From: Gammaproteobacteria bacterium
GTDB lineage: Bacteria > Pseudomonadota > Gammaproteobacteria > Eutrophobiales > Eutrophobiaceae
Length of the DNA stretch: 64,000 nt
NCBI GenBank assembly: GCA_965222155.1
Contig: CBDCTH010000012.1
Span: 3,080,441-3,144,440, forward strand
Direction of reading: 5' to 3'
Shown: one piece after another, positions 36,742 to 37,170 of the stretch
How the letters are laid out: every line of letters begins with the position of its first letter
How positions within the stretch are numbered: position 1 is the stretch's first letter
Notes under the pieces: generated by a model
Seen by the model: only the letters and a program-made list of their open reading frames with translations
What the model was told of the DNA's origin: nothing
Databases searched by the model: none
Position numbers and translations under genes: made by a program

Positions 36742-37170
36742 ATGAAAGGGAGCGAATTTATAAAACGGATAAGAAAACTGGCAAAAGCAAACGGTTTGCC
36801 ATTCCAGGTAAGAAGGGAACGTGGAAAAGGCAGTCACATAACGCTGTATTATGCTGACCGTCATAGCATTCTCAGGGCAACCGCATACTTTTGAATTCAG
36901 ACGTTTTTGCCCGATTCCGTCATTCTGGCGCAGGCCAGAATCCAGTGAATAACCCTTCATTACCCTGATCATGCGCTGTTGTTTGACTGGATGCTGGCAT
37001 TCGCCAGCATGACGGGCGGCGTTGTCCGGTTGGTTTCCTGTCTTCTGCAACAGAATCCAAAAGTATGCGGTTGCCCTGATAGCATTCTGAGAAATCCGAA
37101 AGATGAGTTGAAAACAGGGACTTACCATGCCATGTTGAGACAATTGGGAATTGATAAGTCGGAGATATAG
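36742..37170 (+). pseudogene. hicA: HicA-family toxin gene interrupted by a 206-bp MITE
   Basis: MKGSEFIKRIRKLAKANGLPFQVRRERGKGSHITLYYADRHSIL | MITE | RNPKDELKTGTYHAMLRQLGIDKSEI-stop. Removing 36873-37078 plus one copy of the 10-bp duplication restores a 70-aa ORF. Confidence 0.8.
36873..37078. mobile_element. 206-bp MITE, copy 1 (21-bp perfect terminal inverted repeats, 10-bp target-site duplication)
   Basis: The TIR is cagggcaaccgcatacttttg, with its reverse complement at the right end. The TSD atagcattct is at 36863-36872 and 37079-37088. Confidence 0.85.

What the first reader, a model, noticed from the sequence alone, without database searches (positions are those of the whole stretch)
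36742..37170. A 206-bp MITE with 21-bp terminal inverted repeats and a 10-bp target duplication has split the hicA toxin gene, leaving hicB intact
The element at 36873-37078 begins cagggcaaccgcatacttttg and ends with its exact reverse complement. It is flanked by atagcattct on both sides (36863-36872, 37079-37088). Deleting the element and one duplication in silico joins ...YYADRHSIL to RNPKDELKTGTYHAMLRQLGIDKSEI, giving a 70-aa HicA-like ORF that ends 4 nt before hicB. A second copy at 40513-40718 has its own perfect 10-bp duplication (ataaggatgg), which confirms transpositional insertion. The element has internal hairpins (ttctggc/gccagaa, gctggc/gccagc) and no coding capacity. The autonomous partner is not in the window. 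CA-starting inverted repeats and a 10-bp duplication would fit IS4-like chemistry, but that is only a guess.
Basis: seen in the sequence. Interest (0 to 1): 0.6.

Follow-up and report, generated by a model that had tools for sequence, protein, structure and literature searches.

The report
ISAs1-type MITE splits hicA toxin gene
A 206-bp non-coding "hitch-hiker" transposon, one of about 30 copies in this genome and moved by an ISAs1-family insertion sequence found elsewhere in the chromosome, has landed in the toxin gene of a hicAB toxin-antitoxin pair; this is a very clean but ordinary example of a known kind of event.

Summary
A 206-bp element lies at 36873-37078 with perfect 21-bp terminal inverted repeats. 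A 10-bp target duplication (ATAGCATTCT) flanks it inside hicA. A second copy lies at 40513-40718 with its own 10-bp duplication.

The genome holds 28 full-length copies (mean pairwise identity 96.9%), and 25 of them have perfect 10-bp duplications. The partner is not an IS4 element. It is a 1265-bp ISAs1-family IS with three intact copies outside the window. Its transposase scores 388 bits against NF033564. Its left end is identical to both MITE ends over 20 nt, and it also makes 10-bp duplications. In a congener, 20 of 20 copies of the related IS do the same.

Joining the flanks gives a 70-aa HicA (Pfam PF07927) that is collinear with intact orthologues in two congeners. hicB is intact. Three other congeners carry different hicA lesions (frameshift, nonsense, 5' deletion). 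dN/dS of 0.1-0.25 indicates that these losses are recent.

The MITE core is a doublet of genus-wide REP-like palindromes. It shares only the 20-nt ends with the IS. Near-identical copies were found in no other genome or metagenome searched.

Verdict: a real feature and a new member of a known kind, of modest interest. The scan had not noted this element on other DNA.

The parts
36706..36734 (+). Promoter-like site (TTGACC-17-GATACT) just upstream of hicA; candidate hicAB promoter
   Evidence: Consensus scan, (9/12 match). This is weak evidence only.
36742..36872 (+). hicA 5' part. It covers codons 1-44, and codon 45 is kept by chance. As it stands it reads into the MITE and stops after 50 aa (...HSILRATAYF*).
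   Evidence: The GSH motif is retained and the last 25 residues are lost.
36863..36872 (.). Left copy of the 10-bp target-site duplication ATAGCATTCT
36873..37078 (+). 206-bp MITE with ISAs1-type ends. TIRs are at 36873-36893 and 37058-37078.
36919..36943 (.). REP-like palindrome 1 inside the MITE (GTCATTCTGGCGCAGGCCAGAATCC)
   Evidence: The 10-mer cores occur 70-220 times in the genome, against about 9 expected.
36989..37013 (.). REP-like palindrome 2, inverted relative to palindrome 1 (GGATGCTGGCATTCGCCAGCATGAC)
37079..37088 (.). Right copy of the target-site duplication ATAGCATTCT
37089..37170 (+). hicA 3' part (codons 45-70 plus stop). It is in frame with a chance 63-aa ORF that starts at a TTG inside the MITE (36979).
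37174..37599 (+). hicB antitoxin gene, intact, 141 aa
   Evidence: Pfam PF15919 33.6 bits. E. coli HicB 6hpb_B, E = 9.1e-18 over the full length. dN/dS 0.10-0.20.
40513..40718 (+). Second MITE copy (97% identical), intergenic, with TSD ATAAGGATGG at 40503-40512 and 40719-40728

Best explanation
The element is a non-autonomous miniature inverted-repeat transposable element (MITE) that belongs, by its ends and its target duplication, to the ISAs1 family. It codes for nothing. Each end carries the 20-nt left inverted repeat (CAGGGCAA[A/C]CGCATACTTTT) of a 1265-bp ISAs1-family insertion sequence. That IS has three intact copies elsewhere in the same genome. The IS transposase, acting in trans, most likely binds the two ends, excises or copies the element, and integrates it with a 10-bp staggered cut. 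This step is inferred, not shown. One such event placed a copy inside codon 44 of hicA. HicA is the mRNA-interferase toxin of a hicAB toxin-antitoxin pair. The insertion leaves a 50-aa stub that lacks the C-terminal 25 residues, so the toxin is probably inactive; this too is inferred. The antitoxin gene hicB is untouched. The family expanded recently, and as far as searched only in this species. Its copies are strongly enriched between genes, as expected if most intragenic insertions are purged. A toxin gene is one of the few coding targets whose loss costs nothing, or even helps.
For: 1. Copy number and duplications. There are 28 full-length copies with mean pairwise identity 96.9%. Of these, 25 have perfect 10-bp TSDs of unrelated sequence, one matches 9/10, and one has a 12-bp TSD matching 11/12.

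2. Partner IS. The IS at G000:C12:2740875-2742139 is 1265 bp, has an intact 369-aa transposase and the TSD CATTCGCCGG. Its first 20 nt are identical to both ends of the hicA copy. Two more intact copies have TSDs GGAGAATATA and CCGTCAGTAA.

3. Family assignment. The transposase matches NF033564 (ISAs1 equivalog) at 387.6 bits against a cut-off of 70, and Pfam DDE_Tnp_1_assoc plus DDE_Tnp_1. Its nearest plasmid-borne relatives are annotated ISAs1.

4. Family hallmarks. Published ISAs1 features are an IR starting CAGGG and a 10-bp DR (PMC11946415, where transposition was observed in Frankia; PMC6305408, ISArsp11).

5. Independent check of the TSD length. In congener G020, 20 of 20 copies of the related 1254-bp IS with the same left IR have perfect 10-bp TSDs.

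6. Empty site. The restored 70-aa HicA hits PF07927 at 30.9 bits (cut-off 27), aligned 5-58 of 58. It is collinear without gaps with intact hicA in G014 (86% nt) and G005 (82%). The alignment to E. coli HicA (6hpb_A) runs across the insertion point.

7. Location of copies. Only about 6 of 25 empty sites lie in an ORF of 100 aa or more, against 89% of random positions.

8. Burst in G000. The IR 20-mer occurs 88 times in G000 and at most 27 times in any congener. The reversed control pattern gives 0 everywhere.
Against: Trans-mobilisation has not been observed. The MITE shares only 20 terminal nt with the IS, so it is not a simple deletion derivative. Both MITE ends are of the left-IR type, whereas the right IR of the IS differs at 3 positions (CAGGGCAAGATC...). 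No empty-site allele of this exact locus was found in metagenome contigs. Loss of HicA activity is inferred from the truncation and was not tested. The 50-aa stub keeps the conserved GSH histidine.
Confidence: 0.9

Rival explanations
1. The element is a REPIN or BIME-type REP doublet, spread by a REP-associated tyrosine transposase (RAYT) rather than by a DDE transposase.
For: The core consists of two inverted REP-like palindromes that fold into one long hairpin. The same core exists without IS ends in congener G014. The genome has Y1_Tnp-domain genes.
Against: RAYT and IS200-type mobility makes no target duplication, whereas 25 copies have perfect 10-bp TSDs. The copies are bounded exactly by ISAs1 IRs. 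The two Y1_Tnp genes are not flanked by these REPs within 1.5 kb.
Confidence: 0.03
2. The element is mobilised by an IS4-family transposase, or by another non-ISAs1 transposase, that uses CA-starting ends and 9-12-bp duplications.
For: IS4-family elements make 9-12-bp TSDs (general knowledge). ISAs1 and IS4 transposases share the Pfam DDE_Tnp_1 domain.
Against: Every genomic occurrence of the end sequence that continues into a transposase gene belongs to an ISAs1-family IS. The IS1380 model was the only other family to score, at 20 bits against a cut-off of 180. No dedicated search for IS4-family transposases in this genome was run.
Confidence: 0.04
3. The insertion is a neutral accident in a hicAB cassette that was already decaying inside an eroding accessory island. 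On this view it was not favoured by selection against the toxin. This rival concerns significance, not identity.
For: The surrounding 4 kb holds several broken genes and IS5 relics (ORFs, earlier notes e1-3108443 and e1-3108442). In G018 both hicA and hicB are broken.
Against: The MITE is the only lesion in hicA. The restored frame shows dN/dS of 0.11-0.13 against intact orthologues, and hicB is still intact with dN/dS of 0.10-0.16. Three genomes (G000, G010, G003) lost only the toxin, each by a different lesion.
Confidence: 0.4

Closest known systems
ISAs1-family insertion sequences (ISAs1 of Aeromonas salmonicida, IS1358, ISEc1/H-repeat, ISArsp11, Frankia Francci3_2330/2941)
   Same: The ends start with CAGGG, the IR is about 20 bp, and the direct repeat is 10 bp. 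The partner IS is 1265 bp with a single DDE transposase (NF033564) (PMC11946415; PMC6305408).
   Different: The element in the window is 206 bp and has no transposase. It shares only the terminal 20 nt with the IS, and it carries the left IR at both ends.
Classical bacterial MITEs (Correia elements of Neisseria, RUP of Streptococcus pneumoniae, MITEAba12, Tn3-derived TIMEs, Microcystis MaeMITEs)
   Same: It is small, non-coding, multi-copy, bounded by TIRs with TSDs, hairpin-forming, mostly intergenic and occasionally gene-disrupting. The Microcystis and TIME examples are in PMC2779907 and PMC4133298; the others are from general knowledge.
   Different: The ends and TSD length are those of the ISAs1 family. 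Four full-text searches of the library, two of which paired ISAs1 with MITE terms, found no paper describing a MITE assigned to ISAs1.
REPINs / BIMEs (REP doublets)
   Same: The core is two inverted copies of a genus-wide REP-like palindrome, separated by about 45 nt and folding into a long hairpin.
   Different: The doublet is enclosed by IS inverted repeats and moves with a 10-bp TSD. No RAYT link could be shown.
E. coli K-12 HicAB (PDB 6HPB)
   Same: The gene order is hicA-hicB with a 3-nt spacer. HicB aligns over its full length at E = 9.1e-18. The best solved-structure match for HicA is E. coli HicA, and the GSH histidine is conserved.
   Different: The HicA similarity is weak (E = 0.053 against PDB; Pfam 30.9 bits). 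Here the toxin gene is interrupted.

Membership tests
MITE | Small size (<600 bp) and no coding capacity | tested here: met
   The element is 206 bp. The longest internal ORF is 46 aa. Rfam gives no match.
MITE | Terminal inverted repeats | tested here: met
   The 21-bp TIRs are perfect in this copy. The family consensus differs at one position between the two ends.
MITE | Target-site duplication of constant length at independent copies | tested here: met
   25 of 28 copies have perfect 10-bp TSDs, all with different sequences.
MITE | Multiple dispersed copies | tested here: met
   28 full-length copies plus 4 partial or diverged copies lie on two contigs.
MITE | An autonomous element with the same ends and the same TSD in the genome | tested here: met
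   Three intact 1265-bp ISs have an identical 20-nt left IR and 10-bp TSDs.
MITE | Mobilisation in trans by that transposase | not testable with these tools
   This needs a transposition assay.
ISAs1 family (for the partner IS, and by extension the MITE ends) | Transposase of the ISAs1 type | tested here: met
   NF033564 387.6 bits (cut-off 70). PF13808 105 bits plus PF01609 69 bits.
ISAs1 family (for the partner IS, and by extension the MITE ends) | IRs of 14-22 bp starting with CAGGG | tested here: met
   The criterion is from PMC11946415.
ISAs1 family (for the partner IS, and by extension the MITE ends) | 10-bp direct repeats (8-10 bp by my recollection of ISfinder) | tested here: met
   3 of 3 intact ISs in G000, 20 of 20 ISs in G020 and 25 of 28 MITE copies.
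   All transposase-bearing elements with these ends are ISAs1 by the NCBIfam equivalog model.
HicA toxin (PF07927) | Profile match above the curated cut-off, small size, and a position next to hicB | tested here: met
   The restored 70-aa frame scores 30.9 bits against a cut-off of 27. hicB starts 3 nt after its stop codon.
HicA toxin (PF07927) | mRNA-interferase activity that is neutralised by HicB | not testable with these tools
   This needs expression in a laboratory strain.
REPIN | Two inverted REPs forming a hairpin | tested here: met
REPIN | Association with a RAYT, and spread without a TSD | tested here: not met
   TSDs are present. The Y1_Tnp genes are not flanked by these REPs.

The most novel reading that the evidence does not exclude
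The 206-bp family may be one branch of a genus-wide superfamily of chimeric MITEs. Each would be built as ISAs1 IR - REP doublet - ISAs1 IR, with a different REP-doublet core in different species: 194-221-bp versions occur in G014, and at least three families occur in G000. The superfamily would persist even in genomes that have lost every ISAs1 transposase (G014, G009). This would mean that REP doublets are repeatedly captured between IS ends to found new MITEs. Alternatively, the REP hairpin core may itself be needed for mobilisation or retention. Either way it would link two classes of bacterial repeats that are usually treated as separate.
Probability: 0.2. Interest if true: 0.5.

Novelty: new member of a known kind. 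Interest (0 to 1): 0.3.

Why it matters
The case is unusually complete. It has a MITE with a known partner IS, dozens of independent target duplications, an excision-restorable gene and intact orthologues. It also assigns a MITE family to the little-studied ISAs1 family. No paper in the searched library does so, and ISAs1 transposition has hardly been characterised. The MITE and IS pair could therefore serve as a simple substrate for studying ISAs1 transposition. The locus also adds one data point to a recurring pattern in which the hicA toxin is lost, by four different lesions in four species of one genus, while hicB is kept in three of them. None of this changes current concepts.

Tried and rejected
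1. IS4 assignment: rejected, because the partner is ISAs1.

2. Simple deletion-derivative origin: rejected, because the MITE and the IS share only 20 terminal nt. True deletion derivatives of 338-440 bp do exist elsewhere in the genome.

3. The idea that the IS targets REP sequences, which would explain the chimeric core: not supported. Only 1 of 20 IS insertions in G020 lies in a REP.

4. RAYT/REPIN mobility: rejected because of the TSDs, and no REPs flank the Y1_Tnp genes.

5. Exact-word scan of 185,579 species genomes for a MITE-specific 20-mer: the only hit, in Undibacterium, is a chance match without the IR.

6. Metagenome scans for the empty-site junction (25-mer) and for the MITE (26-mer): both found nothing.

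8. Known RNA families: none.

9. Orientation bias of the copies (21 + against 7 -, binomial p = 0.013): it does not track the GC-skew replichores clearly and is left unexplained.

10. Literature linking ISAs1 to MITEs: none found in four full-text searches.

Full report
**Observation.**
The sequence is exactly as described. An element lies at 36873-37078. It begins CAGGGCAACCGCATACTTTTG and ends with the perfect reverse complement. It is flanked by ATAGCATTCT at 36863-36872 and 37079-37088. A second copy at 40513-40718 is 97% identical and is flanked by ATAAGGATGG on both sides. The 21-mer, allowing up to 3 mismatches, occurs four times in the window against 0.00 expected in shuffles. As single-stranded DNA the element folds into one long hairpin (-55.2 kcal/mol, z = -8.35). 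Its longest internal ORF is 46 aa, and it matches no Rfam family.

**A real transposable family.**
The window's genome (G000) is 4.55 Mb in 12 contigs, and the window is C12:3080441-3144440. It holds 28 full-length copies plus four truncated or diverged ones, on two contigs.
- An alignment of the 28 copies gives a 206-bp consensus with mean pairwise identity 96.9%.
- 25 copies have perfect 10-bp flanking duplications, all of different sequence.
- One more matches 9/10, and one has a 12-bp duplication matching 11/12.
- The duplicated sites show no consensus and are 43% G+C, against 53% for the genome.
- After in-silico excision, only about 6 of 25 sites lie within an ORF of 100 aa or more, and several of those lie at the extreme end of the ORF. 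For random positions the figure is 89%.

The copies are therefore strongly intergenic, as is usual for MITEs. The hicA copy is one of the rare intragenic ones.

**The autonomous partner.**
A scan of the genome for the end sequence found pairs about 1265 bp apart.
- The element at C12:2740875-2742139 is 1265 bp. It is flanked by a perfect 10-bp duplication (CATTCGCCGG) and encodes an intact 369-aa protein.
- That protein matches the NCBIfam equivalog model for ISAs1-family transposases at 387.6 bits (cut-off 70).
- It carries the Pfam pair DDE_Tnp_1_assoc plus DDE_Tnp_1.
- Its nearest plasmid-borne relatives are annotated as ISAs1 family.
- Two further intact copies have TSDs GGAGAATATA (C10:21675-22939) and CCGTCAGTAA (C12:434273-435526). 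Several frameshifted or truncated copies also exist.

The first 20 nt of the IS are identical to both ends of the hicA MITE copy. The right IR of the IS differs at three positions (CAGGGCAAGATCATACTTTT). Beyond those 20 nt the MITE and the IS share nothing.

The published hallmarks of the ISAs1 family are IRs of 14-22 bp starting with CAGGG and a 10-bp direct repeat. This includes transposition events observed in Frankia (PMC11946415). ISArsp11 is another example: 1306 bp, CAGGG ends, 10-bp DR (PMC6305408).

As an independent check I examined 20 copies of the related 1254-bp IS, which has the same left IR, in congener G020. All 20 have perfect 10-bp duplications. This is a neighbouring family whose transposase shares the DDE_Tnp_1 domain with IS4.

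**The interrupted gene.**
Joining the flanks and removing one duplication gives a 70-aa frame, MKGSEFIKRIRKLAKANGLPFQVRRERGKGSHITLYYADRHSILRNPKDELKTGTYHAMLRQLGIDKSEI.
- It matches Pfam HicA_toxin above the curated cut-off (30.9 against 27 bits; profile positions 5-58 of 58).
- Its best solved-structure match is E. coli HicA (6hpb_A, E = 0.053). That alignment runs straight across the insertion point.
- As the gene now stands, it yields a 50-aa product: 45 native residues plus ATAYF. This keeps the GSH histidine but lacks the last 25 residues.
- hicB (37174-37599, 141 aa) is intact. It matches PF15919 and aligns with E. coli HicB over its full length at E = 9.1e-18.

**Relatives.**
Among 22 species genomes of the same genus, the hicAB cassette is found in five others. 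Homology is limited to 36703-37589, and the flanks differ between genomes.
- G014 (86% nt identity) and G005 (82%) have intact, gap-free 70-aa hicA genes. This validates the reconstructed empty site.
- G010 has a 1-nt insertion directly after the ATG.
- G003 has an in-frame TGA at codon 25.
- G018 retains only the last 59 nt of hicA, and its hicB is also interrupted by a REP-like insert of about 150 nt.
- Pairwise dN/dS is 0.11-0.25 for hicA (restored frame) and 0.10-0.20 for hicB.

Both genes were therefore under purifying selection for most of their divergence, and the toxin lesions are recent and independent. Whether the MITE allele was favoured, or is simply neutral inside an eroding accessory island, cannot be decided here.

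**Anatomy and origin of the MITE.**
Positions about 47-71 and 117-141 of the element are two copies, in inverted orientation, of a REP-like palindrome (GTCATTCTGGCGCAGGCCAGAATCC and GGATGCTGGCATTCGCCAGCATGAC).
- The 10-mer cores of this palindrome occur 70-220 times in the genome, against about 9 expected.
- The palindrome is present throughout the genus.
- The same core, without IS ends, occurs at 91% identity in G014.

The element is thus a chimera of two ISAs1 left IRs enclosing a REP doublet. It is not a deletion derivative of the IS.

G014 also has 194-221-bp elements with identical IRs, different REP-doublet cores and 10-bp duplications (10/10, 9/10 and 9/10). Yet no ISAs1 transposase was found in G014 or G009. 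G000 holds at least two further short families with ISAs1-type ends, as well as true deletion derivatives of 338-440 bp.

I tested whether the IS targets REPs, which might explain the repeated capture. It does not: only 1 of 20 insertions in G020 lies in a REP. RAYT-type mobility is excluded by the TSDs, and the two Y1_Tnp genes of the genome are not flanked by these REPs.

**Distribution.**
- Near-identical copies (90% or more) of the 206-bp family were found only in G000 among the 41 related genomes searched.
- A MITE-specific 20-mer has no true match in 185,579 species genomes.
- A MITE 26-mer and the empty-site 25-mer have no match in the JGI metagenome contigs.
- The IR 20-mer occurs 88 times in G000, against 27, 25 and 25 in the IS-rich congeners G020, G018 and G002. 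In G020 and G018 the count roughly equals the number of transposase-gene matches (27 and 28). The reversed control pattern gives 0 everywhere.

The MITE burst is therefore specific to this species, as far as searched.

**Mechanism.**
Shown:
- the structure of the element, its copies and their duplications;
- a partner IS with the same ends and the same TSD length;
- a gene that is restored by excision, and intact orthologues.

Inferred:
- the ISAs1 transposase mobilises the MITE in trans;
- truncated HicA is inactive;
- hicB is still expressed. The evidence for this is a promoter-like site at 36706-36734, no convincing terminator in the MITE, and a GGAG 9 nt upstream of the hicB ATG.

**Limits.**

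**Verdict.**
It is a new member of a known kind, a MITE and IS pair, and is of modest interest. The points beyond the ordinary are these: no ISAs1-derived MITE was found in the searched literature, the element has an IR-REP-doublet-IR architecture, and hicA has been lost repeatedly within the genus.

Noticed in passing
window 36258-36455 and 40169-40366: These are direct repeats of 198 nt at 95% identity. The first continues into IS5-type transposase fragments (…VDTTVQEKA…). They bracket hicA::MITE, hicB and several broken genes. Their spacing (3911) differs from that of the two MITE copies (3640), so the MITE copies are independent insertions and not part of a segmental duplication.
   Followed up: partly
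G000:C12:92618-92773, G000:C10:16884-17086, G000:C12:978329-978522, G000:C4:273035-273271: Further short elements (156-237 bp) carry the same ISAs1-type ends but have different interiors. They represent at least two more MITE families in this genome.
   Followed up: partly
G000:C12:1362887-1363584 (also C12:323493-324088): Composite elements of about 600-700 bp carry three IRs. An outer variant end (CAGGGCGAACGCATACTTTAG) is followed by a 258-bp REP-containing arm and then a 338-440-bp internal-deletion derivative of the IS. The whole unit is flanked by a 10-bp TSD (CCCAGCAAAC perfect; 9/10 at the second locus). This was read from the flanks.
   Followed up: partly
G000:C12:1501907-1502150 and G000:C12:1526336-1526797: A MITE copy is inserted 38 bp inside the left end of an ISAs1 copy. 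Separately, one MITE copy is inserted inside another, giving nested insertions.
   Followed up: no
G000:C12:1150314-1151446: A tandem array of about 6.5 units of 173-177 bp. Each unit contains a REP doublet related (about 78%) to the MITE core.
   Followed up: no
G014 (L057, L058, L060) and G009: These congeners have 13-16 ISAs1-type IRs. G014 has 194-221-bp MITEs with 10-bp TSDs. Neither genome has a detectable ISAs1 transposase gene, so these are orphan MITEs.
   Followed up: partly
G020 (L061-L080) and G018: There are recent bursts of the full-length ISAs1-family IS: 27 transposase matches (26 with the same score) in G020 and 28 matches (about 18 full-length) in G018. There is no accompanying burst of the 206-bp MITE.
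   Followed up: partly
L043 (G010), L044 (G003), L045 (G018): hicA has been inactivated independently in three congeners: by a +1 frameshift after the ATG, by a TGA at codon 25, and by a 5' deletion. In G018 hicB is also split by a REP-like insert of about 150 nt.
   Followed up: yes
G000, all MITE copies: 21 of 28 copies lie in the same orientation on the contigs (binomial p = 0.013). The bias does not clearly follow the GC-skew replichores and is unexplained.
   Followed up: partly
window 36979-37170: The insertion creates a 63-aa ORF that starts at a TTG inside the MITE. It reads in frame into the last 26 codons of hicA. It is probably meaningless.
   Followed up: no
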